Made by a program: the position numbers and the translations under genes. From a virus, in IMG/VR virus record IMGVR_UViG_3300042892_002240, positions 28,495-92,494 of that record: a stretch of 64,000 bases of DNA. The stretch is one strand, 5' to 3'. Positions 7,910 through 53,226 of this stretch are shown here, piece by piece (the stretch's first letter is position 1; each line of letters opens with the position of its first letter). The notes under the pieces were generated by a model, which worked only from the letters and a program-made list of their open reading frames with translations, ran no database searches and was not told where the DNA came from.

Positions 7910-7926
7910 ACCTACTTACATAAAAG

Positions 7927-7953
7927 AAAAGGCCCCCTTGCGGGGGCTTTTTC
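7927..7953. terminator. Bidirectional intrinsic terminator
   Basis: aaaag-gccccc-ttgc-gggggc-ttttt between convergent genes. Confidence 0.85.
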
Positions 7954-7986
7954 ATTTCTAGTGATAACTACCACTAGTTAGTGAGT

Positions 7987-19904: not shown

Positions 19905-19917
19905 CGAGGAGAACAAA

Positions 19918-23340: not shown

Positions 23341-23399
23341 ACTTATGTACCACAGTGCATGTTGCATTACCCGTACATAAAGTAAATGGAGACACCCCC

Positions 23400-35184: not shown

Positions 35185-35277
35185 TGTAGGGAGTTACCGT
35201 CATGAGATGGTAACATATGTGTATGGCCCTACCCCCAAAGTAGGGCCTTTCCATATCCCCTATCAAGGAGAAAACTA

Positions 35278-37709: not shown

Positions 37710-38180
37710 TTACATTTCTTTTTGAAGGCTGTCAGGGTTGTACCCAATGTCCTCAAGGAAGCCACGCAGTCGGTTAATCTCTGCTCGCATAGCGTGGTAC
37801 AAGTGCTGGCGCTCAATGTTCTCAATGAGCGACACTTTTTCTAAATGTTCAGGATTGCAGCAAAGGGTGTTGCGACATAAGTGGTCTAGTGTCTCAACCT
37901 TAGTAAGGGAAACATGCATGTGTTGTTCGTATGACCACCGGTGAGCTTGGAAAGCTTTGTTACCAACGTACATACGACCATACCCTTTATCAACAGGGCC
38001 AGTCCATGTCCAACAGCCATCATCTTGCTTTTTGATGTGTTTCCAGAACTTATCTTCTGGGAGCTTTGATTTATCAATAATATGCATGCGTCCATCGCGT
38101 TGCATTTGCTTGTAGTGGGCTGCGCACAGCCCTTTGGCTACAGCTTTTTCGTTACATACTGGACCTCTACACATGTACAT
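37710..38180 (-). CDS. HNH endonuclease
   Basis: CWTWTG...GYG...AHRWSY...LDHLCRNTLCCNPEHLE; N-terminal C..C...GLCAAHY module. Confidence 0.9.
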   Translation of the reverse strand: MYMCRGPVCNEKAVAKGLCAAHYKQMQRDGRMHIIDKSKLPEDKFWKHIKKQDDGCWTWTGPVDKGYGRMYVGNKAFQAHRWSYEQHMHVSLTKVETLDHLCRNTLCCNPEHLEKVSLIENIERQHLYHAMRAEINRLRGFLEDIGYNPDSLQKEM

Positions 38181-38345
38181 ACTAATCTCCTTGGACGGCG
38201 CCACAATTGCGCAGACACATAGTCTAACCCAGGTTCGCCCCTTACCCCATAACAATCAGCACGGATGCATGTTTTGTGCTGTATGGGGCAGGGGGAGGAA
38301 AGATCCCGACAAGAAAGGGTAGATGTCAGGCCCTGGCTTCTTTCC

Positions 38346-38705
38346 TTACGTCCTTTGTTTGTAGTTTTCCGTCTTTCTACGGAGTTCAACTGGGTGGCCT
38401 AGTTTTGCTAGATGCCTAATTCTTTGATAAATGGTTTGGTGGCTACGCTCAAGCATGTTAGCAATGTTAACTGCACGCTCCCCGTTATTCCAGCTCGCAA
38501 TGAGTTTCTCATCTTCTTCCCTCGTCCAATGTCGTGACTGACGCTTTTGACTTCCGTAGATTGTAAACATAAATCGCTCAGGATCTACGTCATACGCATT
38601 GGCTATAAGAGTTAAACCAATCTTTGGATCAAGGTGTCCGTCAATCATCAACTTAAAGATTACCTTGAGATCAAGGGTTGCTACAGTTTCATATTCACAT
38701 TCCAT
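38346..38705 (-). CDS. Myb/SANT-like HTH protein
   Basis: WTREEDEKL...IANMLERSHQTIYQRIRHL. Confidence 0.7.
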   Translation of the reverse strand: MECEYETVATLDLKVIFKLMIDGHLDPKIGLTLIANAYDVDPERFMFTIYGSQKRQSRHWTREEDEKLIASWNNGERAVNIANMLERSHQTIYQRIRHLAKLGHPVELRRKTENYKQRT

Positions 38706-38716
38706 GGTTTCCTCTT

Positions 38717-39592
38717 TCACTTAACTCGTAGTTGCGAGTATGGGGTTTTGTTGGTGACTGACTCAGCTACATCAGCTGTAATCTTGCCTAAGCTAAACGC
38801 AGCATCAAACAACTGAGTCTTAACTGCTGGCTCAGTGATCTGTTTAAACACTGCAGGAGACACCAGCTTCTTCAATGTCTCAATGTCAAACGAGCGACGC
38901 TCTGCCTGAACTAAAGAGACGACTTTGCCGTCTACTTCTACCTTGTCAAGAGACTCACTAAGCATCGCCGTCTTAAGTTCTTCTTCAAGACCCTTAAGTA
39001 ACGTTGCCCATGAGTCTGCTTCTTTCTTTGCAGCTAAGTAACTTCTTACTGTGGTTTCCATATTGTTTGTCATGATGATAATTTACCTTCTCTCGCTAGT
39101 TGTAACAACTTTTCTAATGAACAATCAGGCCCAAGTACTACTACAACAACCTGATTTGGTTGCGGGCCACTAATTACTTTTGGTTCTACCGAACCAACTA
39201 ACTTAAGTTGCTTAGGAATAATGAACGTGCTACCAACACCCTCAATATCCACAAGCATCTTTCTCTGTTCCGGGTGTCCATCGGGCATAACGTCAGGGTC
39301 TACGACTTCAGCCATAAGCCCCTTGTATGGCCCGCTTGAAACCTCCACGGACATTCCTTTTCTTAAGGCTTTTGCGCCTACCATTTTGTTACCTTTCTGT
39401 GGGTCACACTACTGTTGGGAGTACGTTTAATGTAAAGAGGAACTCATCGAGCACCTCTAGAGCGTCGTGTGTCTCGTCGCTGTTGTCAAACCTTGCAGAG
39501 TCAAGCAAGTGCTCAAGAGCCTTGATTTCGTCACTGCTAAAGATGACCACAGTAATGGGTCCACTGTTTTCTGATGATTTGATAATTGTCAT
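38717..39592 (-). CDS. Three small genes (38717-39073; 39070-39384, KOW-motif protein; 39404-39592)
   Basis: KOW-like KGMSVEVSSGPYKGLMAEV in the middle gene; tight packing. Confidence 0.6.
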
Positions 39593-39609
39593 TGTTTTCC
39601 CTTTGTTTG

Positions 39610-41046
39610 TTATCGGTATGTGTTAATAAGACTGTCTTGTATTTCTTCTAGCAAGTATTCACCCTTGCCATCTACTATTTCCCCTGCAGAAAACGCTTTG
39701 CTTTCTAACAGGCCCCATAACCGCTCATCAATTGTCCATGAGCCATCAATACTGGCCAAGCAAACTTCTACTGTTACATCGTTTATCTGGCCAATTCTGT
39801 GGAGCCTATCTTCTACTTGTGTTAGATCACTGGGTGACCAAGGTAATTGTGTGATTAATACATGGTGGTTTCTGCCATCACCATGCAATGTCAACCCAAC
39901 ACCAACTGACTTGATCTGCCCAATCATTACTCGTGCTTCACCACTATTAAAAGCACGTATAGATTCTGCTTTCATGTTGTCATCCATGCGACCGTTGAAC
40001 TCAACTACACCGTACTTACTAAGTTCCTCACTCAGGCTTTCCATGACATCATGATGCTCAGCAACTATAAAGAGCCCATGGTCTTCTGGCAAGGTCTCTT
40101 TAAATAACTCTTTTGCACGTTCTACTACCCCCTTTACTTTGCACGCCCCTGCTAGCTTCCGCATAGTAGTGAGCTTTACTAACGCTTCATTACGCATTGC
40201 GCCACGCCACTCTTTACCAGCCCCTGCTAAGTACGCGACTAAATCCTCTTCAGCAAGTAAATAATCTTTGACGGGCTGACCTCTTCCTTCAATATGGACA
40301 CCAGCACGACCTTTGTTGGGCAGGTCTAGCACATCATCTCTTTTAAGCCGCAGCATAAACGATGAGATCATCGCTGCATTGAGCCCAAGAGAGTCAACGT
40401 TGGCACGCTTACCAAACTTATTGCGCTTACCATTACCATCTAGCTCCACCGGACAGTAGTAGTTCCAAAAGACACCCTTACCACCAATGGCTTTCCAAGC
40501 TTCGTCACCAAGTATTTCTATTTGAGCACCCATCTCCATGTTCCTACCATTGGGGGTAGGTGTACCAGACATAAGTATCTTGAATCCGCTTATTGTCTTA
40601 GATATCTTTATGACTGCTTGTGTACGCCTGGCAGAGATGTTCTTAACACGGTGAGACTCATCAACAACAAGAGTCTTGAACCTACCTAGCAACGACAATG
40701 GGTCATCTGCTAACTCAGGTGTCCAATTTGCTATTACTGAATCTCCAATGATGTACACATCGGCTAAGGGAAGATCTTTAGGATACGATCCCCTAAGAAC
40801 TTCCACAGTCAAGTGTGGGGCAAACTTCTCTAACTCTTTTACCCAAGTTAAACGCAAGGACGGTGGGACGACTACAAGGGCTGGGGATTCACCCAACTCT
40901 TTTGCTCTGCTAATAACTTCAATTGCACATGCTGTTTTGCCAAGGCCCATGTCAAGAGCTAAGTAAGCCTGCTTCTTGTCCATGACAAACTCAACGGCTG
41001 CTTCTTGGTGAAACATTAACGGAGTAGGTACCACCGCTTTCATCAC
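39610..41046 (-). CDS. SNF2-family helicase (second copy)
   Basis: DMGLGKT, VVDESH, MSGTP, GVGLTL and QVEDRLHRIGQ motifs. Confidence 0.9.
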   Translation of the reverse strand: MMKAVVPTPLMFHQEAAVEFVMDKKQAYLALDMGLGKTACAIEVISRAKELGESPALVVVPPSLRLTWVKELEKFAPHLTVEVLRGSYPKDLPLADVYIIGDSVIANWTPELADDPLSLLGRFKTLVVDESHRVKNISARRTQAVIKISKTISGFKILMSGTPTPNGRNMEMGAQIEILGDEAWKAIGGKGVFWNYYCPVELDGNGKRNKFGKRANVDSLGLNAAMISSFMLRLKRDDVLDLPNKGRAGVHIEGRGQPVKDYLLAEEDLVAYLAGAGKEWRGAMRNEALVKLTTMRKLAGACKVKGVVERAKELFKETLPEDHGLFIVAEHHDVMESLSEELSKYGVVEFNGRMDDNMKAESIRAFNSGEARVMIGQIKSVGVGLTLHGDGRNHHVLITQLPWSPSDLTQVEDRLHRIGQINDVTVEVCLASIDGSWTIDERLWGLLESKAFSAGEIVDGKGEYLLEEIQDSLINTYR

Positions 41047-41153
41047 TCTAACTCCTCCTCGTCGCCGTAGTAATCTTTTTCTTCTCGGTATCTATCGTCT
41101 GCCCGTTGTTCAGCGTCGCAACCGCAACATGGTCTGTCTTCGCATTGGCACAT
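41043..41153 (-). CDS. 36-aa Cys-rich microprotein
   Basis: Read manually: MCQCEDRPCCGCDAEQRADDRYREEKDYYGDEEELE; aaggag RBS; overlaps the SNF2 start. Confidence 0.65.
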   Translation of the reverse strand: MCQCEDRPCCGCDAEQRADDRYREEKDYYGDEEELE

Positions 41154-41167
41154 CTTTTTCTCCTTAA

Positions 41168-41413
41168 TTAGTTGTTGATGAACTCATCAGGAACTTGCAC
41201 TGTAGTAGTCCAACCACGATTGGATCGCCATTGCATGTACATGATGTTTTTAATTGCAGTGAATAGTGCGACAAGGAACATTGCTATACCTACACCCAAA
41301 TACACTTTGTTTGATTCAATTACTAACAACCGCCCAATTGTTATCACCATTAGAAAACTAATAACAACTTGTTTGATAACTGCTCGCTTAGGCGAAACCA
41401 CTAAATTTCCCAC
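41168..41413 (-). CDS. Small membrane protein
   Basis: Two hydrophobic segments. Confidence 0.5.
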   Translation of the reverse strand: MGNLVVSPKRAVIKQVVISFLMVITIGRLLVIESNKVYLGVGIAMFLVALFTAIKNIMYMQWRSNRGWTTTVQVPDEFINN

Positions 41414-42087
41414 AACTCTACCTCGTTTCTTTTTACAAACTCGTAAGCTTTATTAAAAGCGTTAGTACTTAATTCTTGCGTTGCTTGCTCATGGCAATTG
41501 CATCCATCGTGTTCGTTGTCTGCTTCAGAACAATCTTCTTCGTACTTGAGGTCATCATACCCATAAGTTTCATAAAACACCAATATGCCTCCAATCCAAA
41601 CGTGCGCACCACCAAACCCCATACCCCACTCTTCATAACTATTAATGAAGTGCAGTCGTGGAAACTTAGATGATACGTACGACCAGAAGTTGTTTTCAAA
41701 TGGCCCCCATGCGGTTTCGTAGTTAAACGATAATGTTTTAGATGTTTCTCCTAATTCATGCCGTTCAAAACACCTTGTCTCACAATCACCCCATTTGGTA
41801 CCCCACTCGGCATTTGCCCATTCATAACTGTTCTTGTGTCCAGTTATTTTTAGGCACAACTCTTGATGCTCTTTTATTAGCTGATCTTTTTCAAAAGCCA
41901 ACTCAAGAGTAAAGGGATGCTTGTTGTACTTCTTAAGCTTTACAGGGTCCCTTGTAAGTACCGCTGGCATCTTTTTTAAGTTTGTCAAACTTGTTGTGCC
42001 ATCTTTGTTTGTGACTTTTAAAAGAAGCTTTTCGAGCTGCTTCTGGTTACCTCTTATGACTGTTGTGTTGTTACACCAGTTGGGCAT
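41401..42087 (-). CDS. DUF1281/YubB-like ferredoxin-fold protein
   Basis: MPNWCNN start; WANAEWGTKWG; FNYETAWGP. Confidence 0.8.
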   Translation of the reverse strand: MPNWCNNTTVIRGNQKQLEKLLLKVTNKDGTTSLTNLKKMPAVLTRDPVKLKKYNKHPFTLELAFEKDQLIKEHQELCLKITGHKNSYEWANAEWGTKWGDCETRCFERHELGETSKTLSFNYETAWGPFENNFWSYVSSKFPRLHFINSYEEWGMGFGGAHVWIGGILVFYETYGYDDLKYEEDCSEADNEHDGCNCHEQATQELSTNAFNKAYEFVKRNEVELWEI

Positions 42088-42132
42088 GTTTCTCCTTTGT
42101 TATTGGACCTGACCACGATTGAGCCATGGCGT

Positions 42133-44637
42133 TTACCATCTTTCTCTGTACTCAAAGTCCTCGGGTGGTTCAGGCGGTTCGTTAAGCATTCTCCAATAAG
42201 AATCAACGCAGCTGTCATAGTGGCTACTATCACGCCAATCGCCTTCGTCTAGACCGGGGTTCTCTTTTAAGAACTCGTCTAACCCCTCCCAGTAAGAGTC
42301 TGTGTCGTTGTATAACTCACAGGCATTTTCAAAATCATCTGCTGCTTTGCACATGTCTTGAAATGGTTGTTCAAGCCATGCGTCGTAGTTAGTACCCATT
42401 GATGTATATACTCCATTCCTCGTCTGTCATGTTGTCACGATTACGTTCTGAACAACCCCAACACTCACCAGTATCTGCATCATGATCTATACGACTAGAG
42501 GCAACATACTTTTGCCCACAATCGCACATACCTAATTCAGTATCGTCGTAGTTAGCGCCCATTACTCACTCTCACAGTCGTGTCCGTATAGCCATTCGGC
42601 ATGGTCAATTTCATTAGTGTGATCAAAGATCCGATCACATTCAGCACATTTGTCAACAAGCAGATGACCCCACCCGTCACAGTGAGTGCATTCAACGTAG
42701 TCTGTTACTCCATTCCACGTGCCACCATGGCCCTTACAGTCAGGGCACATCTTTTTAGTTGTAGCAATAGGGCTACCCATTCTTTTTCCTCGCTTTTGCA
42801 CTCAGGGTCATTCCAACCCATGCCCAAATTCTCCATTCTTCTTGGGGCAACAAACCACCATTCTCTTTGCCACCCCATTGCTCTAATGCTTCAAGCACAC
42901 CACAGTCACTACAGATTTCTGTCTTGTCATCTGTGCGGCTAATGGCACCCGGGTACTGCCCACGCTCGGAAGCGTTGGGCACAGCACCTAGGCACCTTGG
43001 GCAGGTATGGTCAGGGAACTTTTCACTCATGCTTTTACTCCTAATTCGTTGATTGCGTTGACGTACGCGATAGCAGACAACTCTTCTAATTGCTTGGTTG
43101 CTGCTTCAATGATTTGCTTTAGGGTATCAACAAGGTTGGGGCCATCGCAGTGTTCCTTGAAGAATACATTTACCGTGTGATCTCCTGCATTTAATTGCAA
43201 TGTTCTAAACGGCACAGCAGAAAGAACGGGGTCTGTAAAGTCCCCAAACTCCATGCTCACTCTGCTATCACCACGTAGGTGAACGCTTGTTGATGTTCTT
43301 GTGTAGTCGTAACTCATTTTGTTTCCTTTGCTGTTTTTATTAGGTCTGATGCAAGCTCTTGCAATTCTTCAATTTTTTGCATAACGTTTTCAACTGCTTC
43401 GTTGATGGCATCTGCTAACGCCCCAACGCCAGTCTCATTCATAATTTGTAACTCTTCATCTCTTGGGTGCAGAGCCACGGTTAATTTACCGTCGTCATTC
43501 TGAATATGCAAATACATAACGATGCGCTGGCGCTTGGGATGTTGTGAAGGACGAATGTCATTAACATTGTCAGGGTCGTCAACGGGTGCACCCCAACCTC
43601 TAATGGCCAGTACTGCTCCATGAGCAACGCCATATGTTGCTACTGCGTCCATTAAGTCGTATGGGTTGTCAGCTTCAGCAACAACACACGGCTCATTGTC
43701 TTTCCATACGCCTAGATCCCATACGGTTGCTGGGGCGTTGTCCCAACCCTCGTATTCTTTAAAGTACATTTCATCAAAGGCGATGAAGTCTTGCTCATTC
43801 ATGGTGGTTCTCCTTATTGTTGGTTTATTGGACTGCGGCACTATTAAAGATGTTGCTGTACTAACTAAATGGGTCAGCCCATTTTCTTTGTTCTTGCTCT
43901 GACAGTGATGCATCCATCACATTCTCATAATCAACATAATAAGTTGATATGAGTTTGTCAATGCGATCAAGCCTTTTGCGTAAGTTTCGGTTGCGTAACA
44001 ACCTCCACCAAGGTGTTTCAATTAGGACTGTTTCTACTAATGAAGCTTCAATGCGAGCCTCATAGAGTTTTTGCGCTAAGAACTTATTGTTCAACATGTT
44101 CCTCCGGTGAATCTATTCCGCACTTGGGACAGTACGAGTCATACTCATGGTCACATGGATCGTCGTAAGGTGCTGGTAACTTAGGCATCTGTGCCAACAA
44201 CTTACTGACTACTCCACGAATATCCAACAAGACATCAGCAACTTCTGATACAGGGGTCATGCTATGGCCTGCATTGTTTTCTAATGACTTATCAACCATT
44301 GCCATTACTTCTAAACAAACAGCGATAGTGGCAATTGTTTCAAACGATTGAAATTTTGTTATGGTGTCGCTCATTATTTCATAGCTCCATAGAACACACC
44401 GGCGTAGCCAAGCAGAAACTCCGAGACAAGATAATCAATCTCAATTGTTGATCTACTTTCGCTGTAGTCTGTCATGTCTTCTACAAACACCATGTAAAGC
44501 AAGATGATGTCTGAGATATCTTTTCGTGGATTTTCATTGCTTTTATCCACTCCGTATGGCACGTCTCGCTCTCCAAGCTTTACACCTCTTTCAAAAGCTT
44601 TCTCTGCTAGCGTTTCCAATGTGGGGTCTGGTCTCAT
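42133..44637 (-). CDS. Cluster of about ten small acidic or Cys-containing hypothetical genes
   Basis: Head-to-tail ORFs with RBSs, e.g. 42133-42399, 42773-43030, 43027-43317, 43314-43802, 43861-44097, 44084-44374 and 44374-44637. Confidence 0.6.
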
Positions 44638-44779
44638 AGGTCATCCTCTGTTTCTTTGTCATTGGTTTCGTCATCAAACGGCAACACTGTTTCAGGTCGT
44701 GGAAGTTCTATATAACCTCCAAAGATATCCCTGACGTAGGTGCCGTTGGATAGGTAACTGTATGTTGGTTCTTCTGTTG

Positions 44780-45163
44780 TCATTCTGCCTCCGTAGTTAC
44801 TAGGTCATGCTTGTGGTCTAACCACATTTTGAATGGTGGGTAAAGGCCAGCAATACGCTCTAATGCTTTCTCAGGTACTGAATGGCTATCCCCATCGTAG
44901 ACGCCATTGGCATCAAGCGCCCCAACGATTACACAAGTACCTACAAGCACTTGTCCAAACAATGCTGTGGCAATTGGGTTGATGTCAAGCCCTAATAGCA
45001 AGCCCTCGTCATGTACATAACCAACGATCTCTAAGTCGCTGTTATGCACACAGTCAAACCAACCTCCGACTGCATTGTTGAGGTACTCACCGATACCACT
45101 TTCTTTGGTATGCAGGTTGACCCCTACCACATTGTCTGTACCAATTTGAATGACCTTGATCAT
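44780..45163 (-). CDS. DUF3846-like protein
   Basis: LNNAVGGWFDCV...YVHDEGLLLGLDINPIA...LVGTCVIVG. Confidence 0.75.
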   Translation of the reverse strand: MIKVIQIGTDNVVGVNLHTKESGIGEYLNNAVGGWFDCVHNSDLEIVGYVHDEGLLLGLDINPIATALFGQVLVGTCVIVGALDANGVYDGDSHSVPEKALERIAGLYPPFKMWLDHKHDLVTTEAE

Positions 45164-46139
45164 TTGTTTTCCTCCTTGATTAATAGGTGAGATTGGACGG
45201 AGACCAGGGCTCGGATGAGCGCCGTCTTTTGTTCTTCAGTTAAAGGTTTAGCCATGGTGTCATTCCACTCTGCTTCACACAAATCAGGGCCGTAGTACTC
45301 TTCGTAACGGCCCAACAATGTGCAACGCTCACACTCAGAGATAACTGATTCCTCAGGTTCCGGTGCTTCATTGGCAATGCTCCAAAGCATTCTTTCCTCA
45401 GCTGTTTTGTTTTGAGACAATCGATATTGATAGTCTTTCTCAATATCTGACTCCACACAAGAACATGGGGTGGAACCAATGAACCACCTCATGTCTTTCA
45501 CTAATGAACGCAACACTTTCTTTTTGCTGTTGTTGAACATGCTTCCTCCTATTTGTTTTTCTCTGATAAAGACAGTAAGGCTGCTTCTCTGGCAAGTGCT
45601 TCAGCTTGCTGCATTAACTCTTGCGCTTCTCTAGCCAAGTTCATGCTCTTGCGCATCAAATCACCTACAGCACCACAGCCACCATGATCTATAGACCACT
45701 TGAGGCTAAGGGATGCTAACGCAATTGGCAACTCTCCTTGATAACGACTTTCATCGTCATCATCAGAAATAATTTCTACTTTGTTAGTAGCAAGATCCCA
45801 ACATCCAAACTCAATGGTGTTATGGTCACTTACAACTGCAAGCATGATGATTTGAGATACAACTTCACCTGTATCGGGGTCACGCTTACGGGCGGGCACA
45901 AAGAAGCCAAAGCTTTCTTTTGGAAGCCTGTCAGTTTCGTGACACAAGTTTGCTATAAATGCGTATGAGTCACCCTCATACTCTTCTTTCTCCATTGACG
46001 AGATCTCTGGAAGAAACTCGTCATCTAGAGATAAAGGAACAACACTGGCCCAAAGATCATCAAACGGATCGTTGACTTTGTTGCCAATGTTGTTACTGAA
46101 GTGTTTCCACAAATCGTGGATTGATTTATTAGTAGCCAT
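45160..46139 (-). CDS. Two hypothetical genes (45160-45540, 45549-46139)
   Basis: ORFs with RBSs. Confidence 0.6.
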
Positions 46140-46188
46140 AGCCTCTTCCTTGTGTTAATTGGACCGCATCACGATTGTGATGTGGGTA

Positions 46189-47619
46189 TTAGTACTCCAA
46201 CCCGCGAGTAAGCTTTACGGGCAACTTGTCACCACGGGCAACTTTCTTGAGAGCCTCAACAGTCTCTGCGACGTCGTATGTCATGTGAATGCCATGTTTA
46301 CGAACAATGCTGATGCACTGCTTGGTCAATTCTGTGCGCTGCTGGTCACTCTGACCGTCAGTCACATAACCATCGCATAGCCAGATGAATGGCTCACTCT
46401 TCCTGCGCATTGATAGTGCAAACGCCAGTGCAGGTCCATCTACACCATTGCCACCGTTACCTCTGCGTACATTCTTGACAACCTTGCCACGATCAGCAAG
46501 CACCCAGATGTTGGGCTCATCAGTAGTTGAACCAGTTGAATGGCTGTAACCAATAACTACACACCCAGGCGAAGCCTTGATGATTTGCCACAGGTCATCA
46601 GTATCCAACTGCATTGAACCGGATTGGTCAATCAAGATGACGCCACCAACGCCCCGAATGGTCTTGTCAAACACTCGCTGATCAGGATCAGTGAGCATAC
46701 GACTGATGCGTCGTGGAGCTTTACCAATGTCAGTAGCTACACGACGACGACCGAGACGACCAGCGACCCGTTCAGTCAAAGGGATCTTGTCAATGATAGG
46801 GACTGCAAACCCTGTATCACCACCGATACTAACTTCCTCACCGTGTATGCCATCACTAGCTTTACGCTCGGCTTTGGACCTGGTAACCATGCGTGACAAG
46901 TCACGAGCTAACGGTAGTGTGAATGCCCGATAACCCTTAGGCACAGACGCATACTCAGTTGAAGTCTCACCATCGTCATCCTCTTTGCTAGACACTGCAA
47001 TTGAGTACGGCTCAGTGCTGGCAATACGGCTGGCATGCAGACGATTCCATGAACGCTCGTGTCTCGCACAAACTTTCTTGACATCCTTGGCAAACTGGTA
47101 CATATTTGCGTCAGCACCAGCGTCAACTGCTTTCTTGATACCTCGCATAAACGCAGTGCATGCTTTAGTACCGTAGGTCGCAGAGACCATACGCATGATG
47201 CCCATGAGGTCCTGACCATTGGTAAGAATCTCACCTGAAGTCTGCTCACTGCCATCTTTGAGCATGTCCGTGTCAAAGCCAAGACGCTTTGCCAAGTAAT
47301 TGACACGCAACTCCTCAGCTGACTCAACAAGCTCGGGGTGGATAGTGTCTGCCCAGTCAAGCGGAATAGCAGGCCCAATCTCAGGAGAGACCTTGGCATG
47401 CAATGCTTCATGAGCACGGATCACACGTGACAACTGGTCAGTACCCATTGGAACTTTCATGCGCCGATTCTTGATGTCAGTGAATGCATCACCACGCTGT
47501 GCTGATGCAGACGTGACATTCCACGGAGTATCGTTAGACAGGTCATCTCTGTCTAGCCACTCAGGGAACACACTGACAAGCTTTGGCTTTGGCTTTGGCT
47601 TATCTGTTTTATTGCTCAT
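46189..47619 (-). CDS. vWA-domain protein with an N-terminal HExxH (CobT-like partner of the AAA ATPase)
   Basis: RAHEALH; ILIDQSGSM MIDAS motif; IWLCDG. Confidence 0.8.
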   Translation of the reverse strand: MSNKTDKPKPKPKLVSVFPEWLDRDDLSNDTPWNVTSASAQRGDAFTDIKNRRMKVPMGTDQLSRVIRAHEALHAKVSPEIGPAIPLDWADTIHPELVESAEELRVNYLAKRLGFDTDMLKDGSEQTSGEILTNGQDLMGIMRMVSATYGTKACTAFMRGIKKAVDAGADANMYQFAKDVKKVCARHERSWNRLHASRIASTEPYSIAVSSKEDDDGETSTEYASVPKGYRAFTLPLARDLSRMVTRSKAERKASDGIHGEEVSIGGDTGFAVPIIDKIPLTERVAGRLGRRRVATDIGKAPRRISRMLTDPDQRVFDKTIRGVGGVILIDQSGSMQLDTDDLWQIIKASPGCVVIGYSHSTGSTTDEPNIWVLADRGKVVKNVRRGNGGNGVDGPALAFALSMRRKSEPFIWLCDGYVTDGQSDQQRTELTKQCISIVRKHGIHMTYDVAETVEALKKVARGDKLPVKLTRGLEY

Positions 47620-47691
47620 ATCCCTCCTCAGGGTGTAGTGGGCAGGACGGCGGCACAATTGAATGCGCCACCGTCCCACCCGATTGGTTAC

Positions 47692-48414
47692 TTAGGCATT
47701 AACGCTGTTGACTTTGATGGAGTCAATAATCCCCATCCACATGTCGTTGAATACGAGCTGTGCTGCACGCTCGTCACCCAACACCTTGCGCACTTGATCG
47801 AAAGCCTTCCAAGTACGCAAAGAGATGCGGCGGTCATTGTCAAGGTCACACGACAATGCCGCAGCCGAACGAATGTCCTCTGACAAGAATGTCAAAGCGT
47901 CCGGGTGGGGGCAATTGATGCGCACGACAAGTGGGAAACGATCCTTGAGGGCAGTCGGGAGTTCCCGCATGTCCTCAATGTTGGTCGTCATAACTGCTGA
48001 GAAGCCGGCATTGGGCTTGACTGTACGGTCATTCTCGGGGTGCAAGAATGATGCAGACTCAGGGCTGTCAAGCATGCTGAGCATGAGTGACAACACGTCG
48101 CCAGATGCACGGTCAATTTCGTCAATGATGACGCGACCGCCGACAGAGCCATTGCCTTCCCAAGCACGAAGTACTGCGCCGTCGTGCCATTTCCATGTGC
48201 CACCACCGGTGGGCATGAAGTGACCAGTGATGTCACTACTGGTCATGTCTTCATTACAGATCAAGCGATGTGCTCCACCTGCAATGTTGCCCATGGTGAG
48301 GCCTGCAAACGTTTTGCCAGTTCCTGGCGGCCCGTGCAGAATGATGCGGTCAACGCCAGCCGTAAGCAAGTCTGATACGTCTGCCCAGCACTGGGGTAGG
48401 TTTGATGTGGTCAT
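47692..48414 (-). CDS. MoxR/CbbQ/CobS-type AAA+ ATPase
   Basis: GPPGTGKT, WHDG, IIDEIDRA, MTTN and ALKDRF motifs. Confidence 0.9.
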   Translation of the reverse strand: MTTSNLPQCWADVSDLLTAGVDRIILHGPPGTGKTFAGLTMGNIAGGAHRLICNEDMTSSDITGHFMPTGGGTWKWHDGAVLRAWEGNGSVGGRVIIDEIDRASGDVLSLMLSMLDSPESASFLHPENDRTVKPNAGFSAVMTTNIEDMRELPTALKDRFPLVVRINCPHPDALTFLSEDIRSAAALSCDLDNDRRISLRTWKAFDQVRKVLGDERAAQLVFNDMWMGIIDSIKVNSVNA

Positions 48415-48538
48415 GTTTTCCTCTTCCTGTTTGTTTTGTGCGTTAAAGATGCGCACCCCCTTTTATTAGATGGCATTACAAACTAGACAGCCGCCCGATT
48501 GAACGAGCGGCTGTCCTACTTACCTTGACTTGTTAAGG

Positions 48539-49887
48539 TCAGGCGATGTATTGGCTAACACTCTTATAAGTGCTAGCGTTTACAAACTCTTCCTCACTGA
48601 TGTTAAGAATCGCAATCGCGTTCTCAATCTCTTGGATCTCCCGTGTGCTGATGTTCCTAGGGAAGTCTGGCATTTCAGGGCGCTTGAACTTTTTTGCGTC
48701 CAACTGGAAGCTTATTGAAACACTTCGGGTATGCCCATACATGTAATTACTTATGTCCACGTGGGATACCTTGAGCTTTCCTGAAACAATTGCTTCAAGT
48801 ATTGTTGCTTCAAAGGCCTTAAGTGCATCTTTGTGTGCTTCTCCAGCTTTTTCGTACGCTGCCTTGGCATCCAGACGCTGCTTCAATGCTTTCTGAAGTG
48901 CCTTGATTAAGGCAACACGCTTGACTTTGATGTTCATTGGTTTTCCTCTTCCTTGTGAGCTGTTGTAGGTCGCTCTTCACCTAATAATTCTCCCCTGAAC
49001 AGGAAGAAAAGAAAGAAAGCCACACCAAAAAAGATGAGGCCGACCTCAAAAAGGTCATTGAGTAACTCAATCATTGAGCAACCTCCGTTTGTCCCTGGCT
49101 GGTGGGTTGGCTTTACGCTCAGCCTTACACCAGCACTTTCCACCACATCCATTATCTGAGTGGTCTTTCCATCCCTGTGACTGTGACCAGCCCCAGGAAT
49201 TCTTATTTCGTATTGTTCTGCTCATGTCCCCTCCTTATGGGGTGTTGGACGGCGGCACGATTACATCGCACCGCCGTCCGTTGTTAGTTACTTTGAAGTT
49301 CTTCAGGAAACTCACTGAAGCCGGTAAACCAGCCCCAGAGTTCGGGTAGAACTTTGGCGCACTCTTCCAAGGAGTTATACCCCTTGCAATGCGCCTCCCC
49401 TGCAAGCATGGGAGTGTCGTCACTGGGCAGGTAACCGTTTTCTTGGCGGTACATCTCCCTGATGTCTTCGGGTGCATTGCTGCCCGTGAACATTCGTGGC
49501 TTGACAGCCATGAACATCCATTTTGCACTATCCCGATCCCACATGATTTGAACCGCCGGAGGTGGCAGTTCAAACCCCTCGGGAAGCCCGTTGAATCCGT
49601 CACCGTCAGACATTACGTGCCTGACGCTGACGGCGAGCCTTGAGACGAAGATGCGCAGCAAGGCTCTGCGAATCTACATTAGGCACAACTGCCTTGGCTC
49701 TACGCACTACATCACGGTTGATGATGCGGTGCAACGTGTCGTCTTCCGGAGTCAAACCCCATGTAGGGGCCCACTTCCAGAAGTTCTGGTTTGACTGGAT
49801 GTCAGTCTCGTCACCGAGACTTTCAGCCACTAACTTACCAAGCAAGGAATCCATTATAGATTCTCCCTCTCTGTTTACTATATCCAC
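48539..49887 (-). CDS. Five small hypothetical genes (48539-48937; 48934-49074, membrane; 49067-49225; 49284-about 49613; 49606-49887)
   Basis: Overlapping stop/start pairs and RBSs; 49067-49225 (MSRTIRNKNSWGW...) read manually. Confidence 0.55.
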
Positions 49888-49898
49888 ACGGTGTGGAG

Positions 49899-49971
<73 letters not shown>

Positions 49972-49976
49972 TGGGG

Positions 49977-50511
49977 CTAGAACCCGTCTGTCATAGACAG
50001 CATTTCTAGAATCGGGCTCGCTACTAAAAAGTCACAGATGTTTTTATGCCCCTCTATGACTAACACTGGTTCTCCATTTTTGAGAACCTTGTATTCGGTA
50101 TATTGCACGTCAAACTCATTGACGTGCCAATTAAAAGTGAGATGTATGTCCCACTCTCCTTGTGGGTGGCGTGCTACAAGAGCACGCTTCACCTCACTCA
50201 TCACGGTGCACCACGTGGTTGATAAAACTCTCAACCATGCGCTGCTGCGCAAGTGTCAATTTGCGACAGTCAAACACACCGGGTTGCCCCAGCATGTCTG
50301 TCTCAATGTCCGACCAATAATCTTTCTCATTGGAAGTTATGAGAATATGGTTTGAGTACGCCATAGCGCCACACTCAAACCATTCGTCAACCATGGCGTG
50401 TGCCATTTGTTTGGCACCCGCTTGGTCCTGTATGTCATACGTGACGCCTGATTCGGCAGACGTCAATTCGTTTTCATAACGAATTTCTAACGTAATCAAT
50501 GGTCTTTCCAT
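49977..50511 (-). CDS. Two hypothetical genes (49977-about 50201, 50194-50511)
   Basis: ORF track; RBS before 50511. Confidence 0.55.
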
Positions 50512-50588
50512 TATTACCCCTCCTTGGGTTGTTCCTCTCATTGAGGCTTTTTGGACGCCAGCACGATTTTTGGTCGTGCTTGTCCTAG

Positions 50589-50708
50589 TGGGGCTGAGGG
50601 GAATCGAACCCCTGAGACACTTTCGTGATCCTGTCTTCTGGCTTTTAGTTAATTAATAACAAGCCGCGACTCGGTAATTGAAATTGTTGTGCTCTACCGT
50701 ACAACCCC
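50589..50708 (-). ncRNA. Expanded tRNA-like RNA (element B, 120 nt)
   Basis: Acceptor GGGGTTG/CAGCCCC-A; T-arm AGGGG-TTCGATT-CCCCT; non-canonical D-, anticodon- and variable-position arms. Confidence 0.7.
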
Positions 50709-51000
50709 CAGTGGCATACTGATAAGCCATTTGCCTTGTGCATGCCAGACAAGGACATAGTACGCAGGTTGCTTATCAATCCTGACCCGTCACTATCGGC
50801 ACGGTGCAGCCGTTTGGCAATGGTGCAAGTATTTCGAGACCCATGCATGAACGTATCCATGCACTTCGTGCTATTGCCAAACTTTCCCTCAGGCTACTGC
50901 TGTCACAGTAGATGGCATATCTGACAGGATATAACATCAATCCACGCTTGCCCGTACATTATCCGGGATTCGCATACACTAAGTGTTACCTGAGGTACTC
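50709..51000 (-). ncRNA. Candidate highly structured, pseudoknotted ncRNA
   Basis: At least 9 stems and 4 loop-mediated complementarities visible by eye; no convincing ORF. Confidence 0.65.
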
Positions 51001-51002
51001 GG

Positions 51003-51098
51003 TGGAGGGAAGAGGAATCGAACCTCTTAGGAGAGTGCGTCCGGACGTCTTTTGCGCCCCGCGATGACTCTGGCCTGTGCAACCAGCATTCTCCCCCC
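51003..51098 (-). ncRNA. tRNA-Ala/tmRNA-TLD-like RNA (element A, 96 nt)
   Basis: Acceptor GGGGGGA/TCCCTCC-A with G3:U70 and A73; T-arm AGAGG-TTCGATT-CCTCT; long irregular stalk in place of an anticodon arm. Confidence 0.72.
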
Positions 51099-51134
51099 TG
51101 GGGGTGGCCTTTTTACATCGGCCAGGATGTTCCG

Positions 51135-51350
51135 TCAGTCAAACGGACTGAACTGCGACGACGTATCGTCACAGCGAAACGCAAGGTCTGCTGCGTACAG
51201 TTTGTCTAAATCGACGCTTTGACGAGCTGCCTTGATGACACCCTTTCGGGTCTCACGCAGCAATTGCCGCTCAAACTTACGAGCCAAGCGTTGTTCCCGC
51301 TTGTATTCACGAACCTGGCGGTACGTCGTTGCAACCGACATTGTTTCCAT
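51135..51350 (-). CDS. Basic hypothetical protein
   Basis: 71 aa; aaggaagaggt RBS. Confidence 0.65.
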   Translation of the reverse strand: METMSVATTYRQVREYKREQRLARKFERQLLRETRKGVIKAARQSVDLDKLYAADLAFRCDDTSSQFSPFD

Positions 51351-51509
51351 TATTTACCTCTTCCTTTTAAACTCCCACTCGGTGTGGAAGATCAATTTGG
51401 ACGGCGACACGGGCGCCGAGGCGCCCAGTCAAGCCAGTCCGAGAATGGGCACCTGTAGCGCCAAAGGGGGATATGTCGCTTTATGGGGCAGGTGCTACTC
51501 CCAATCAGA

Positions 51510-51837
51510 CCTCATATGCTGATTAGATGGTGCGAACCAAGTGATTTATTTGTGGAACTTCCCCAAGAATGGGGAGTCCGATGGTGTTAAATGCAACTGA
51601 CCTTTGTGCTGATACGCACAGGCCAGAATGACTGACACCGCAGCCACTTTTTGAGGGTCAAGCTCTGGCCAGCCCTCTGCTTTTGACAGGCCATTGCGAT
51701 TTTTGATTGCCTTTATGATGAAGGCTTGTTCCCTAGCTGAGAACAAACCCTCAATCTTTTTCCTCTTTTTGAACATGCTGTACTCATTTCTGCCCGCAGG
51801 CAATAGGAGGTTCGCACCAACTAATCAACATATGAGG
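51510..51837. repeat. 29-bp inverted repeat (51510-51538 / 51809-51837) enclosing a small ORF
   Basis: cctcatatgctgattagatggtgcgaacc versus ggttcgcaccaactaatcaacatatgagg; 27/29 complementary. Confidence 0.9.
51546..51776 (-). CDS. Hypothetical 76-aa basic protein inside the inverted repeat
   Basis: MFKKRKKIEGLFSAREQAFIIKAIK...; no clear RBS. Confidence 0.45.
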   Translation of the reverse strand: MFKKRKKIEGLFSAREQAFIIKAIKNRNGLSKAEGWPELDPQKVAAVSVILACAYQHKGQLHLTPSDSPFLGKFHK

Positions 51838-52074
51838 CCATAAGACCTATGGGAATATGGACGGTGCCTCAGTTGCCCGAGGCACCGTCCTCCCGTTTTG
51901 ATTAGATGGAGGAGGTGACAACGCCCAAGCCCTCTATTAGCCAGAGGTAATCTCTTGGGAGGGCAAGGACGCCATCTCCACAATGGCTCACTATCAGGAA
52001 CACTCCAGTGATGCCCACCATAGATTGTCCCTCTATAACTGCTTACCTTGCTATGTCGTCCCCACGAGTACCTC

Positions 52075-53075: not shown

Positions 53076-53212
53076 TGTGGATAAGTAGGCACCTGTGGAT
53101 AACTTTATATAGCCCTATTCTCCCTGTGGATAACTATTCATGATGCAATGCTCCAACGCGCAGGTTGGGCCAACATGTACAAAATATACATCGCCCAACC
53201 GTCTGTGGATAA
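53076..53212. promoter_or_regulatory. Cluster of four perfect DnaA boxes
   Basis: TGTGGATAA (reverse complement of TTATCCACA) at 53076, 53094, 53125 and 53204, all in the same orientation. Confidence 0.8.
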
Positions 53213-53226
53213 GGTAATATTTAAAT

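What the first reader, a model, noticed from the sequence alone, without database searches (positions are those of the whole stretch)
38191..51890. Ten copies of a bipartite hairpin element upstream of leftward genes
Seen (+ strand): TTGGAC GGCGC CACAATT (38191), TTGGAC CTGAC CACGATT (42103), TTGGAC TGCGG CACTATT (43828), TTGGAC CGCAT CACGATT (46159), CAGGAC GGCGG CACAATT (47643), CTAGAC AGCCG CCCGATT (48483), TTGGAC GGCGG CACGATT (49245), TTGGAC GCCAG CACGATT (50551), TTGGAC GGCGA CACGGGC (51397), ATGGAC GGTGC CTCAGTT (51857). All are intergenic, in the same orientation, and 10-80 nt 5' of a minus-strand start codon. The fixed-length N5 spacer varies but usually has a matching partner arm (GGCGG/CCGCC, AGCCG/CGGCT, GGTGC/GCACC, CGCAT/ATGTG), which looks like compensatory change. 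Pairing is weak in the copies at 38191 and 42103. I noticed no copies in the rightward regions. Inference: possible roles are a hairpin promoter for a phage factor (cf. N4 virion RNAP), an RNA processing/stabilisation site before each early gene (cf. T7 RNase III sites), an operator, or a recombination site for exchanging gene cassettes.
Basis: partly seen in the sequence, partly recalled or inferred. Interest (0 to 1): 0.8.

Follow-up and report, generated by a model that had tools for sequence, protein, structure and literature searches.

The report
Repeated box-hairpin between phage gene units
An uncultured actinobacterial phage marks the head of each gene unit in one 15-kb block with the same 18-base signal, often folded into an RNA hairpin; it is probably a lineage-specific transcription signal, a known type of feature whose function here is untested.

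Summary
The window is part of a 92.5-kb myovirus-like IMG/VR genome with two WhiB genes, so the host is probably an actinobacterium.

- **Motif.** On the coding (minus) strand it reads AAYCGTG-N5-GTC(C/T)AA.
- **Distribution.** A weight-matrix scan finds 11 copies, all on the minus strand, against about 0.35 in shuffles. Ten lie in gaps of the leftward block (window 38191-51874), 10-70 nt before a ribosome-binding site and start codon.
- **Relatives.** Two complete relatives (core proteins 50-90% identical) and several partial ones carry the box only in the homologous block, on the coding strand. Five unrelated phages sharing only the CobS/CobT module have none.
- **Hairpins.** About 40% of copies are perfect 12-13-bp hairpins with the box as loop end and 3' arm. 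Eight of 13 pairs show compensatory changes. Non-Watson-Crick pairs are G.U 23 versus A.C 2, so the hairpin works in sense RNA. The other copies keep the box without the hairpin.
- **Not found.** No phage RNA polymerase, sigma factor or recombinase, and no Rfam family or cultured relative.

Best reading (about 0.4): a DNA-level transcription signal for each unit, overlaid upstream by an RNA hairpin without a U tract. Rivals are an RNA processing or stability site and an operator. Our scan had not noted this elsewhere.

The parts
51857..51892 (-). Copy 1, first in the direction of transcription. Variant box AACTGAG-GCACC-GTCCAT inside a perfect 14-bp hairpin, after the first leftward gene and about 180 nt of non-coding sequence.
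   Evidence: dG -31.0 sense, -26.3 antisense; 13/13 pairs. The ortholog in L008 differs by compensatory and G.U changes.
51397..51440 (-). Copy 2. Degenerate box GCCCGTG-TCGCC-GTCCAA in an offset hairpin, 46 nt before the ATG at 51350.
   Evidence: dG -29.5; 19.8 bits. This region is absent from L008.
50551..50586 (-). Copy 3. Box AATCGTG-CTGGC-GTCCAA in a bulged hairpin. It directly follows a tRNA-like element and lies 39 nt before the ATG at 50511.
   Evidence: dG -15.1; 20.0 bits. The tmRNA-like sub-threshold Rfam hit ends at 50586.
49245..49279 (-). Copy 4. Consensus box AATCGTG-CCGCC-GTCCAA as the 3' arm of a 15-bp hairpin. The hairpin starts about 9 nt after the upstream stop codon, and the box ends 19 nt before the ATG at 49225.
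   Evidence: dG -28.9 sense, -23.2 antisense; 2 G.U pairs; 13/13; 28.7 bits.
48483..48516 (-). Copy 5. Variant box AATCGGG-CGGCT-GTCTAG in a 13-bp hairpin, 68 nt before the start of the AAA_5 (CobS-like) ATPase gene.
   Evidence: the only copy flagged as terminator-like; dG -26.1 sense, -20.1 antisense; AAA_5.
47643..47680 (-). Copy 6. Box AATTGTG-CCGCC-GTCCTG in a 17-bp hairpin, 23 nt before the start of the 476-aa CobT-like gene.
   Evidence: dG -33.6 sense, -21.2 antisense; 4 G.U pairs; 13/13.
46159..46195 (-). Copy 7. Box AATCGTG-ATGCG-GTCCAA in a short imperfect hairpin that overlaps the CobT-like stop codon, 19 nt before the ATG at 46139.
   Evidence: dG -14.6. A box follows the CobT-like gene in every box-bearing relative.
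43828..43845 (-). Copy 8. Box AATAGTG-CCGCA-GTCCAA with no hairpin, 25 nt before the ATG at 43802.
   Evidence: dG -1.7; 8/13, at the chance level; 18.3 bits.
42103..42120 (-). Copy 9. Box AATCGTG-GTCAG-GTCCAA with no hairpin, 15 nt before the ATG at 42087.
   Evidence: In L008 the N5 word differs at 3 of 5 bases while both conserved blocks are unchanged.
38191..38228 (-). Copy 10, the last. Box AATTGTG-GCGCC-GTCCAA abuts the ribosome-binding site and ends 10 nt before the ATG of the HNH endonuclease gene. Only a short GCGC/GCGC stem and a TTAGAC base remain of the hairpin.
   Evidence: (HNH). The same arrangement, with the same 10-nt spacing, occurs in G001 and G002.
37710..52644 (-). The leftward gene block that holds every copy. 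It has about 35 tightly packed genes: HNH, HTH, SNF2 helicase, CobS/CobT-like pair, DUF3846, tRNA-Arg, tRNA-like RNAs and many unknowns.

Best explanation
**What it is.** The element marks the boundary of each transcription unit and has two layers.

- **Layer 1, present in every copy.** A bipartite double-stranded DNA box, AAYCGTG-N5-GTC(C/T)AA, extended to CGC-AAY... in relatives with higher GC. It tells the transcription machinery to start or restart at the head of each gene unit. Most likely it is a promoter read by host RNA polymerase together with an unidentified conserved factor. Candidates are the two phage WhiB-like proteins and a conserved 74-aa protein with a weak HTH_17 match.
- **Layer 2, present in about 40% of copies, in the half of the block nearest its start.** The sequence just upstream has evolved to pair with the box in read-through RNA. 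This gives a very stable hairpin (-26 to -34 kcal/mol) without a U tract. The hairpin ends, insulates or stabilises the upstream transcript.

**Shown:** the enrichment, the strand and block restriction, conservation in relatives, purifying selection on the box, covariation in the hairpin, and its sense-strand (RNA) polarity.

**Inferred:** that the box acts on DNA, that it is a promoter, the identity of the factor, and what the hairpin does to the RNA.
For: **Restriction to one block and strand.**
- G000 has 11 of 11 weight-matrix hits on the minus strand, 10 of them in the block. G001 has 6 and G002 has 7, all on the coding strand. All of G001's and six of G002's lie in block gaps; one weak G002 hit lies inside the SNF2 helicase gene.
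- Five phages that share only the CobS/CobT module have no hit in 486 kb.

**Selection on the box.**
- Against L008 (about 90% nucleotide identity) I saw no change in the fixed box positions of nine shared copies by eye, apart from the final A of copy 51857. The N5 word of a copy without a hairpin changed at 3 of 5 bases.
- Hairpins are gained and lost at the same junction while the box stays. After the CobT-like gene the copy is partial in G000, perfect in L126, L133 and L147, and absent in L156.

**Argument for a DNA-level site (inference).** A box buried in a -30 kcal/mol RNA duplex in some copies and unpaired in others cannot be read in one way as RNA. As duplex DNA it is equally accessible in all copies.

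**The hairpin is a real RNA feature.**
- In the 15 hairpin copies (chosen for pairing), 96% of cells pair and 8 of 13 pairs have compensatory changes; 0 of 500 shuffles reach this.
- In the 14 copies with 12-13 of 13 pairs, G.U 23 against A.C 2. The sense strand folds more stably than the antisense strand in most strong copies.

**Little room for another promoter.**
- Sigma-70-type matches in the block are below chance: 14 against 24 expected.
- The gap from hairpin to start codon is often about 20 nt.
- The rightward early genes of the same phage do have TAATAT -10 elements, so the block's signals are of a different type.

**Position by analogy.** In unrelated actinophages, the junction after the CobT-like gene carries a hairpin without a U tract followed by TTGACA-N17-TAnnnT.

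**Register (my reading of the alignment).** A start at the invariant G of GTCC would place AAYCGT at -12 to -7, with A at -11 and T at -7. It would also keep the HNH ribosome-binding site inside a 16-nt leader, a spacing conserved in three genomes.

**Precedents.** Repeated intergenic motifs are recorded in other actinophages (PMC7302621, PMC4351075). Those of halovirus HF2 carry promoters, according to that paper's title (PMC8707807).
Against: - No transcription start has been mapped.
- No phage RNA polymerase and no sigma region 2 or region 4 was found, and no conserved protein is annotated as a sigma factor. A special factor is therefore only postulated.
- The box is not a standard actinobacterial -10. 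G25 and G27 are more conserved than T26, position -12 is A, and no -35 element lies at 16-18 nt.
- The hairpins lack U tracts, while this phage has ordinary terminators with U tracts elsewhere (gaps at 7910-8047 and 35185-35277). Termination at the box is therefore doubtful.
- The sense-RNA hairpin shows that transcripts do read through the box, so one long processed transcript would also fit.
- In G001 and G002 one or two copies fall inside long ORFs with no obvious ribosome-binding site downstream.
- The three complete genomes are related, so agreement between them is not independent evidence.
Confidence: 0.4

Rival explanations
1. The element works only as RNA. The block is made as long polycistronic RNA. 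The hairpin, with its conserved base (GGAC/GUCC), top (CRCG/CGUG) and loop end (AAY), is recognised by a host RNase (RNase III-like) or a phage RNA-binding protein. The RNA is cut into units, leaving a protective 3' hairpin on the upstream piece, as at the T7 early RNase III sites or at REP mRNA stabilisers. Copies without a hairpin are decaying or weaker sites.
For: - The hairpin shows covariation and a G.U excess on the sense strand.
- The hairpins start a few nt after stop codons and lack U tracts.
- The block is rich in other structured RNAs: a tRNA, tRNA-like elements and a tmRNA-like hit. One tRNA-like element runs straight into a copy.
- No separate sigma-A-type promoters are visible in the gaps.
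Against: - 20 of 35 copies have no hairpin above the chance level, yet keep the box.
- The HNH copy without a hairpin keeps its box and spacing in three diverged genomes.
- Where there is no hairpin, N5 drifts freely while the two blocks stay fixed.
- A 12-15-bp stem is shorter than classical RNase III substrates (from general knowledge).
- No Rfam family matches.
Confidence: 0.25
2. The box is an operator for a phage regulator rather than a promoter. One version is a stoperator-like site, where a bound protein blocks elongating polymerase in an orientation-dependent way to shut the block off. Another is a loading site for an antitermination factor that lets polymerase run through the 15-kb block.
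For: - The site is asymmetric, about 18 bp long, lies in short gaps and always points with transcription, many times in one block. This is the same layout as cluster A stoperators as described in PMC4351075.
- Small DNA-binding proteins are conserved nearby: two WhiB proteins and a 74-aa protein with a weak, sub-threshold HTH_17 match that is 70-82% identical in relatives.
Against: - There is no integrase or resolvase, so lysogeny is not indicated.
- No copy overlaps a recognisable promoter, unlike the stoperator systems as I recall them.
- The HTH proteins encoded inside the block are not conserved in relatives that keep the box.
- This reading does not explain why hairpins are built on the box.
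Confidence: 0.18
3. The element is a recombination linker, a cassette site (attC-like), or a small mobile palindromic repeat (REP/MITE-like) that spreads between genes and mediates gene exchange.
For: - Gene content differs from L008 next to several copies: at 51857, 49245, 43828 and 42103.
- The hairpin form with a conserved foot loosely resembles attC and REP elements.
Against: - There is no tyrosine or serine recombinase, and no transposase appeared in the family scans.
- About 4 of 7 differences fall at box junctions against about 2 expected, since differences of gene size must end in gaps anyway.
- One insertion is bounded by repeated ribosome-binding-site sequence, not by the box.
- Copies sit at the same junctions in genomes whose proteins are only 41-68% identical. 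This indicates ancient fixed sites, not mobility.
Confidence: 0.05
4. The element is an N4-type hairpin promoter, read as extruded single-stranded DNA by a phage-encoded, possibly virion-carried, RNA polymerase that sequence profiles cannot recognise.
For: - A hairpin with a conserved sequence precedes each unit.
- Cryptic phage polymerases exist that ordinary profiles miss, for example the one fused to the tape measure protein of Thermus phage P23-45 (PMC10770324).
Against: - There is no PF00940 match (the control genomes do not carry this family either, so the test is weak).
- No conserved large protein carries a DxDxD motif of interest (a crude test).
- The 1382-aa protein is absent from relatives that keep the box.
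- More than half the copies cannot form a hairpin.
- The G.U pairs favour the sense strand, whereas N4 uses the template strand (from memory).
- The stem is 12-17 bp against 5-7 bp in N4.
Confidence: 0.04

Closest known systems
Streptomyces phage phiC31 early region: repeated phage-specific early promoters plus conserved inverted repeats (CIRs)
   Same: In the phiC31 record I saw a 20-nt asymmetric motif (about CCGGGTTGCCGACTCCCTTAC) in at least 8 early-region gaps, 25-40 nt before start codons. It is often preceded by a palindrome or hairpin (CCTACTCACGTGAGTAGG). From memory (Ingham 1993, Wilson 1995, Smith 1999; these papers are not held here), the first motif is a non-sigma-70-like promoter switched on during lytic growth, and the second is the repressor operator. 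In both phages an actinophage gene block is cut into units by a private signal with an adjoining hairpin.
   Different: The sequences differ, sharing only a loose TGCCG-C..TCC core. In phiC31 the palindrome and the promoter are separate elements; here the hairpin is built on the box itself. phiC31 is temperate and has a repressor; this phage has no integrase. The phiC31 promoters were mapped experimentally; the ones here were not.
Repeated short intergenic motifs of SEA-PHAGES actinophages (Microbacterium cluster EC 18-bp asymmetric motif; EG and cluster O inverted repeats; cluster K and EF SAS/ESAS)
   Same: Cluster EC has an 18-bp asymmetric motif repeated 12 times in small gaps, all in one orientation, 21-30 bp before start codons and upstream of the ribosome-binding site; its function is unknown (PMC7302621). 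That matches the layout here. The EG repeats are conserved even where the flanking genes differ.
   Different: The sequences are different. The papers report no RNA-hairpin covariation. SAS motifs sit on the ribosome-binding site itself, which this box does not. Cluster O and EG repeats are symmetric, and a third of the cluster O sites lie in coding sequence.
Cluster A mycobacteriophage stoperators (L5 gp71 sites)
   Same: They are asymmetric, lie in short gaps, are oriented with transcription and occur many times per genome (as described in PMC4351075).
   Different: Stoperators are 13-14 bp, are spread over both genome arms, and belong to temperate phages with a known repressor. Here the sites are confined to one block, no lysogeny genes were found, and many copies form RNA hairpins.
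T7 early-region RNase III processing sites
   Same: Several hairpins with related sequence lie between genes of one co-directional early block, just ahead of the next gene's ribosome-binding site.
   Different: T7 sites are longer, with an internal loop. They do not occur in a form without a hairpin, and their sequence conservation is not concentrated in one arm (from general knowledge). No cleavage has been tested here.
Coliphage N4 virion-RNAP hairpin promoters
   Same: A conserved hairpin lies just upstream of early genes.
   Different: See the fourth rival: there is no polymerase gene, the stem is longer, the strand is the opposite one, and most copies cannot fold.
Halovirus HF2 intergenic repeats
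   Same: Repeated intergenic sequences at the heads of gene units, which carry promoters according to the paper's title; its abstract says they were cloned before a reporter gene (PMC8707807, title and abstract seen).
   Different: It is an archaeal virus with AT-rich TATA-type elements, and there is no hairpin layer.

Membership tests
Sigma-70/sigma-A type promoter | A -10 hexamer TAnnnT, with or without a -35 TTGACA at 16-18 nt | tested here: not met
   The consensus scan finds fewer matches in the block than in shuffles, and none at the boxes. The best register, AAYCGT, has A at -11 and T at -7. However, it has A at -12, its G25 and G27 are more conserved than T26, and the only upstream conserved word (T[AT]RGAC) lies 12-13 nt away.
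Sigma-54 promoter | GG and GC dinucleotides 10 nt apart (TGGCAC-N5-TTGCW), pointing towards the gene | tested here: not met
   The look-alike TTGGAC-N5-CACGATT is on the strand opposite to the genes. It has CG, not GC, at the -12 position. From general knowledge, Actinobacteria lack sigma-54.
Phage single-subunit RNAP promoter (T7 or N4 type) | A cognate phage RNA polymerase gene in the genome | tested here: not met
   PF00940 gives no match in six frames (with the caveat that the control genomes are also silent). The Pfam and PHROG scans of the conserved and block proteins tested found no polymerase.
N4 hairpin promoter | Every promoter forms a short (5-7 bp, 3-nt loop) hairpin on the template strand | tested here: not met
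   20 of 35 copies have no hairpin. The stems are 12-17 bp with 3-9-nt loops. G.U 23 against A.C 2 favours the sense strand.
Intrinsic (Rho-independent) terminator | A GC-rich hairpin followed at once by a U tract | tested here: not met
   Only copy 48483 is followed by a T-rich stretch; the others are followed by AA. Ordinary terminators with U tracts exist elsewhere in this phage.
Structured RNA element (conserved hairpin) | Base pairs kept through compensatory changes, with G.U pairs on one strand only | tested here: met
   This holds for the hairpin subset only. 8 of 13 pairs have double changes, with 0 of 500 shuffles as high and slid controls at 31-44% paired. G.U 23 against A.C 2. Caveats: the subset was chosen for pairing, and the copies are related.
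Cluster A stoperator | An asymmetric site in gaps, oriented with transcription | tested here: met
Cluster A stoperator | A cognate immunity repressor and a temperate life style | tested here: not met
   No integrase or resolvase was found, and no repressor was identified. Binding cannot be tested with these tools.
Integron attC / gene cassette array | An adjacent IntI-type tyrosine recombinase and R''/R' core sites (RYYYAAC ... GTTRRRY) | tested here: not met
   PF00589 is absent. The foot of the hairpin is GGAC/GTCC, not the attC core. Units hold 1-8 genes, and the junctions are conserved across distant relatives.
Start-associated sequence (SAS) of cluster K and EF phages | The motif lies on the ribosome-binding site, 3-8 nt before the start codon | tested here: not met
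   The box ends 10-68 nt before the start codon, and a separate GGAG-type ribosome-binding site follows it.
Rfam families | A match to a curated covariance model | tested here: not met
   In 37-54 kb at E up to 1, the only hits are tRNA-Arg, its antisense artefact, and a sub-threshold tmRNA-like hit.

The most novel reading that the evidence does not exclude
The box is a new promoter class for actinobacterial RNA polymerase redirected by a small phage factor, such as a WhiB-like protein docked on sigma-A or the 74-aa protein with a weak HTH_17 match. This would be an actinobacterial counterpart of T4 sigma appropriation. The promoter would have an RNA insulator built into it: upstream read-through RNA folds onto the promoter sequence itself, so each unit is switched and insulated by one 35-nt module.
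Probability: 0.2. Interest if true: 0.7.

Novelty: new variant of a known kind. Interest (0 to 1): 0.5.

Why it matters
Lineage-specific repeated motifs ahead of genes have been catalogued in many actinophages, but almost none has an assigned function. This one has unusually clear features:

- a fixed bipartite box under strong purifying selection;
- a separable RNA-hairpin layer with covariation and strand polarity;
- a conserved gradient, with hairpin copies first and bare boxes later, seen in three genomes;
- no recognisable phage polymerase or sigma factor.

If the box is a promoter, it points to an unknown way of redirecting actinobacterial RNA polymerase, with two WhiB-like proteins as obvious candidates. 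It would also give a compact promoter-plus-insulator part for Actinobacteria. If it is an RNA processing site, it would show mRNA punctuation in a phage of an uncultured freshwater host. In either case the box is a handy marker for this phage group and for its early-block boundaries in metagenomes.

Tried and rejected
- **Loose pattern search** (up to 2 mismatches): not above chance. Replaced by exact and weight-matrix scans.
- **Scan of viral contigs with a 14-base form of the box:** Uninformative.
- **Cultured relatives:** none for the CobT-like protein, none for the block DNA apart from the tRNA, and none for the hairpin.
- **Family searches:** no match for T7-type RNAP, sigma-70 region 2 or region 4_2, integrase or resolvase.
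- **Regex for DxDxD in large proteins:** nothing suggestive.
- **First block gene (189 aa) as the factor:** its counterpart at the same position in G001 is barely similar (E 0.018). It evolves too fast to read a conserved box.
- **Presence/absence profiling to find the factor:** abandoned. The genomes without the box (G006, G008, G010) share almost nothing with this phage beyond the CobS/CobT module.
- **Host genomes:** the Dps protein finds nothing. CobT-like relatives lie in contigs of Actinomycetota MAGs, many of them Acidimicrobiia and Ilumatobacteraceae, but none carries the box.
- **Other readings considered and dropped by inspection:** ECF-sigma (AAC/CGT or GTC core, but the spacing is wrong), DnaA box, tRNA-like CCA end, CRISPR-repeat mimic, primase or single-strand initiation site, and an antisense promoter on the + strand.
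- **phiC31 papers:** not available in the library.
- **Earlier notes of this scan:** no look-alike stretches in other genomes.

Full report
**Context.** The window is bases 28495-92494 of a 92,494-bp IMG/VR virus record, G000.
- Genes run rightward over most of the genome. They include structural genes, DnaB, primase, a second SNF2 helicase, PolA, RecA, a Holliday junction resolvase, SpoVS and a TGT/DpdA-like protein.
- One block, window 37710-52644, runs leftward. It holds about 35 small, tightly packed genes: HNH endonuclease, an HTH protein, SNF2 helicase, an AAA_5 (CobS-like) ATPase, a 476-aa CobT-like protein with a DxSGS motif, and DUF3846. It also holds tRNA-Arg and a tmRNA-like sub-threshold hit.
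- Two WhiB genes, and PolA best hits in Streptomyces phages at 33% identity, point to an actinobacterial host.
- Relatives of the CobT-like protein lie in contigs of Actinomycetota MAGs, many of them Acidimicrobiia and Ilumatobacteraceae. This is only a weak clue to the host.
- No cultured phage is related at the levels tested.

**The observation.** Read on the coding strand, the motif is AAYCGTG-N5-GTC(C/T)AA.
- The exact pattern occurs 7 times in the genome, all on the minus strand; the reversed control gives none.
- A 21-column weight matrix built from 34 distinct copies gives 11 hits, all on the minus strand. Twenty shuffles gave 0-2 hits each.
- With start codons chosen by ribosome-binding site, the copies are intergenic and end 10-68 nt before a start codon.
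- They occupy essentially every sizeable gap in the block and divide it into units of 1-8 genes.
- The eleventh hit is weak (15.8 bits). It lies antisense inside a rightward CDS outside the window and is not conserved in relatives.

**Relatives.** A search with an alignment of the CobT-like protein gave 65 viral loci.
- The box is present, on the coding strand, in L008 (91% identity), L126/L164 (49%), L133/L135 (44%), L147 (41%) and L156 (34%). It is absent from the rest.
- Whole-record scans put 5-7 copies in G001 (95.6 kb, terminal repeats) and G002 (92.8 kb), all on the coding strand. All but one weak G002 hit inside the SNF2 helicase gene lie in gaps of a single 15-17-kb block homologous to the window's.
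- G001 and G002 share 50-90% identical core proteins with G000, so the three form one phage group.
- In these genomes, which have higher GC, the box extends upstream to CGC-AAY.
- Five other phages (G006-G010, 486 kb) share only the CobS/CobT module and a few accessory genes. They have no copy.
- Copies sit at the same junctions across genomes. One follows the CobT-like gene in every box-bearing genome. One abuts the HNH ribosome-binding site, with the same 10-nt distance to the ATG, in G000, G001 and G002.

**Two layers.** An ungapped alignment of 35 copies shows G33, T34 and C35 invariant, and A21, A22, G25 and G27 at 90% or more.
- Pairing the 13 right-arm positions with the upstream sequence gives a bimodal result. 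Fourteen copies pair at 12-13 of 13 and one at 10 of 13. The other 20 pair at 5-9 of 13, which matches cross-pairing between unrelated copies (mean 8.3).
- In the hairpin class, seven different N5 words each have a perfectly matching left arm.
- On that subset, 8 of 13 pairs show changes on both sides with pairing kept. No shuffle of 500 reaches the observed values, and slid registers drop to 31-44% paired. The caveat is that the subset was selected for pairing and the copies are related.
- The ortholog pair W51857 and L008_3601 differs by compensatory and G.U changes.
- In the 14 copies with 12-13 of 13 pairs, non-Watson-Crick positions are G.U 23 against A.C 2.
- Most strong copies fold 4-12 kcal/mol better on the sense strand than on the antisense strand.
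- The hairpin is therefore selected in the sense strand, most simply as RNA. Transcripts must then read through the box from upstream.
- Hairpin copies lie in the half of the block nearest its start and bare boxes in the far half, in all three complete genomes. This is suggestive but not independent evidence.

**The box is primary.**
- Against L008 (about 90% nucleotide identity in the block) I saw no substitution in the fixed positions of nine shared copies, apart from the last A of one copy.
- The N5 word of a copy without a hairpin changed at 3 of 5 bases.
- At one orthologous junction the hairpin is perfect, partial or absent in different genomes, while the box persists.
- A box that is locked in a -30 kcal/mol duplex in some RNAs and single-stranded in others is hard to read in one way as RNA. 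As duplex DNA it looks the same everywhere.
- This argues, by inference, that the box is a DNA-level site and that the hairpin is a second function laid over it.

**What kind of DNA site.**
- Sigma-70-type matches in the block are below chance, and none lies at the gaps.
- The rightward early genes of the same phage carry their own repeat ending in a TAATAT -10 element. One of these would give a leaderless mRNA. Host-type promoters therefore exist in this phage and look different from the box.
- Gaps between hairpin and start codon are often about 20 nt, which leaves no room for another promoter.
- In unrelated actinophages that carry the CobS/CobT module, the junction after the CobT-like gene holds a G-rich hairpin without a U tract, followed by TTGACA-N17-TAnnnT. 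In the L139 phage the -10 hexamer sits in the loop of a further hairpin. By position, the box stands where others have a promoter.
- If transcription started at the invariant G of GTCC, AAYCGT would lie at -12 to -7, with A at -11 and T at -7. The HNH ribosome-binding site would then sit in a 16-nt leader.
- This register is only moderately convincing. G25 and G27 are more conserved than T26, and there is no -35 element at the right distance.
- No phage polymerase or sigma factor was found. Cryptic phage polymerases are known, however (PMC10770324).
- The conserved small regulators are two WhiB-like proteins and a 74-aa protein with a weak HTH_17 match, clustered at 34.8-37.7 kb next to the end of the block.

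**What the hairpin does.** It is not a standard terminator. Nine of ten copies lack a U tract, while real terminators with U tracts occur elsewhere in this phage. Insulation, pausing, protection of the 3' end, or a processing site are all possible, and none was tested.

**Rejected or weak readings.**
- N4-type promoter: there is no polymerase, the stem is the wrong size, the strand is wrong, and most copies do not fold.
- Sigma-54: wrong strand and wrong dinucleotide.
- attC, cassette or mobile element: there is no recombinase and the junctions are ancient. About 4 of 7 differences from L008 fall at box junctions, and one is bounded by repeated ribosome-binding-site sequence.
- No Rfam family matches.

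**Comparison with known systems.**
- The layout matches the catalogued but unexplained repeats of other actinophages. The closest is the 18-bp asymmetric motif of Microbacterium cluster EC (PMC7302621). It also resembles cluster A stoperators (PMC4351075).
- The nearest system that I recall as experimentally characterised is the phiC31 early region. I could see its repeated 20-nt motif and palindromes directly in the record. Their roles as promoters and operators are from my memory of papers not held here.
- The HF2 intergenic repeats carry promoters according to that paper's title (PMC8707807).

**Verdict.** The feature is real, strongly non-random and conserved. It is a new variant of a known kind. 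The most likely function is a lineage-specific signal for the start of each transcription unit, with an overlaid RNA hairpin (about 0.4). An RNA-only processing or stability site (about 0.25) and an operator (about 0.18) are the serious rivals.

Noticed in passing
window 53160-53226, 53730-53780, 54095-54140: Three rightward early gaps share a repeat, GGCCCAACCGT-N(1-4)-TGTGGATAA(or a variant)-GG/TG-TAATAT. A DnaA-box-like word lies just upstream of a sigma-A-type -10 element. The first copy puts TAATAT 6 nt before the ATG at 53227, which would give a leaderless mRNA. The 'DnaA boxes' may therefore be parts of promoters or operators as much as parts of an origin. G001 and G002 have 5-7 TTATCCACA words at the same divergent region.
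   Followed up: partly
G000:C1:24803-24820 (outside the window, 3.7 kb before its start), minus strand: An eleventh box copy (AATTGTG-ATGGT-GTCCAA, 15.8 bits) lies antisense inside a rightward structural-region CDS. It is not conserved in G001 or G002. It could be chance or an antisense signal.
   Followed up: partly
L139 (for example 364-450, 3601-3645, 5947-6040, 6433-6480) and L136, L143-L145: Unrelated actinophages that share the CobS/CobT module have a repeated textbook promoter, TTGACA-N17-TAGATT. Its -10 hexamer sits in the loop of a 12-15-bp inverted repeat with G.U pairs on the sense strand. It is preceded by a GGGGGGCG-loop-CGCCCCCC hairpin without a U tract.
   Followed up: partly
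window 32535-33977; 23355-23684; 19804-20934: A 480-aa protein matches the PHROG for queuine tRNA-ribosyltransferase (TGT/DpdA-like; possible 7-deazaguanine DNA modification). There is also a SpoVS-family protein and a RecA. All three are 76-88% identical in G001 and G002.
   Followed up: partly
window 46189-48456: The AAA_5 ATPase and the vWA-like 476-aa protein form a mobile CobS/CobT-like pair. It occurs in very different actinophages and in large chromosomal contigs of Acidimicrobiia MAGs. It diverges much faster than the core genes (41-44% against 75-90% identity).
   Followed up: partly
L008:13014-13339: The closest relative carries an extra gene between box copy 9 and the next gene. By eye its product resembles a Myb/SANT domain (not tested). 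The insertion is flanked by a direct repeat of the ribosome-binding-site region (AACAAAGGAGAA), which suggests gene gain by microhomology at ribosome-binding sites.
   Followed up: partly
L126, L164 and L147 next to box copies (for example L126:5185-5195, L147:7885-7900): A second short palindrome, CCTAATNNTTAGG or CTAATCATTAG, flanks many box copies in G001 and G003. It contains stop codons in two frames in each direction. A TAGCCCTATT repeat occurs in the divergent region of G000 and G001.
   Followed up: no
window 50586-50708 and 51003-51098: A sub-threshold Rfam tmRNA hit (28.8 bits against a cut-off of 47) overlaps one of the tRNA-like elements that earlier notes describe. Its 3' end runs directly into box copy 3.
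   Followed up: no
window 52075-52644 and G001:27038-27610: The first gene of the block (189 or 190 aa) keeps its position and length in G000 and G001 but almost no sequence similarity (E 0.018). It is a very fast-evolving first early gene of unknown function.
   Followed up: partly
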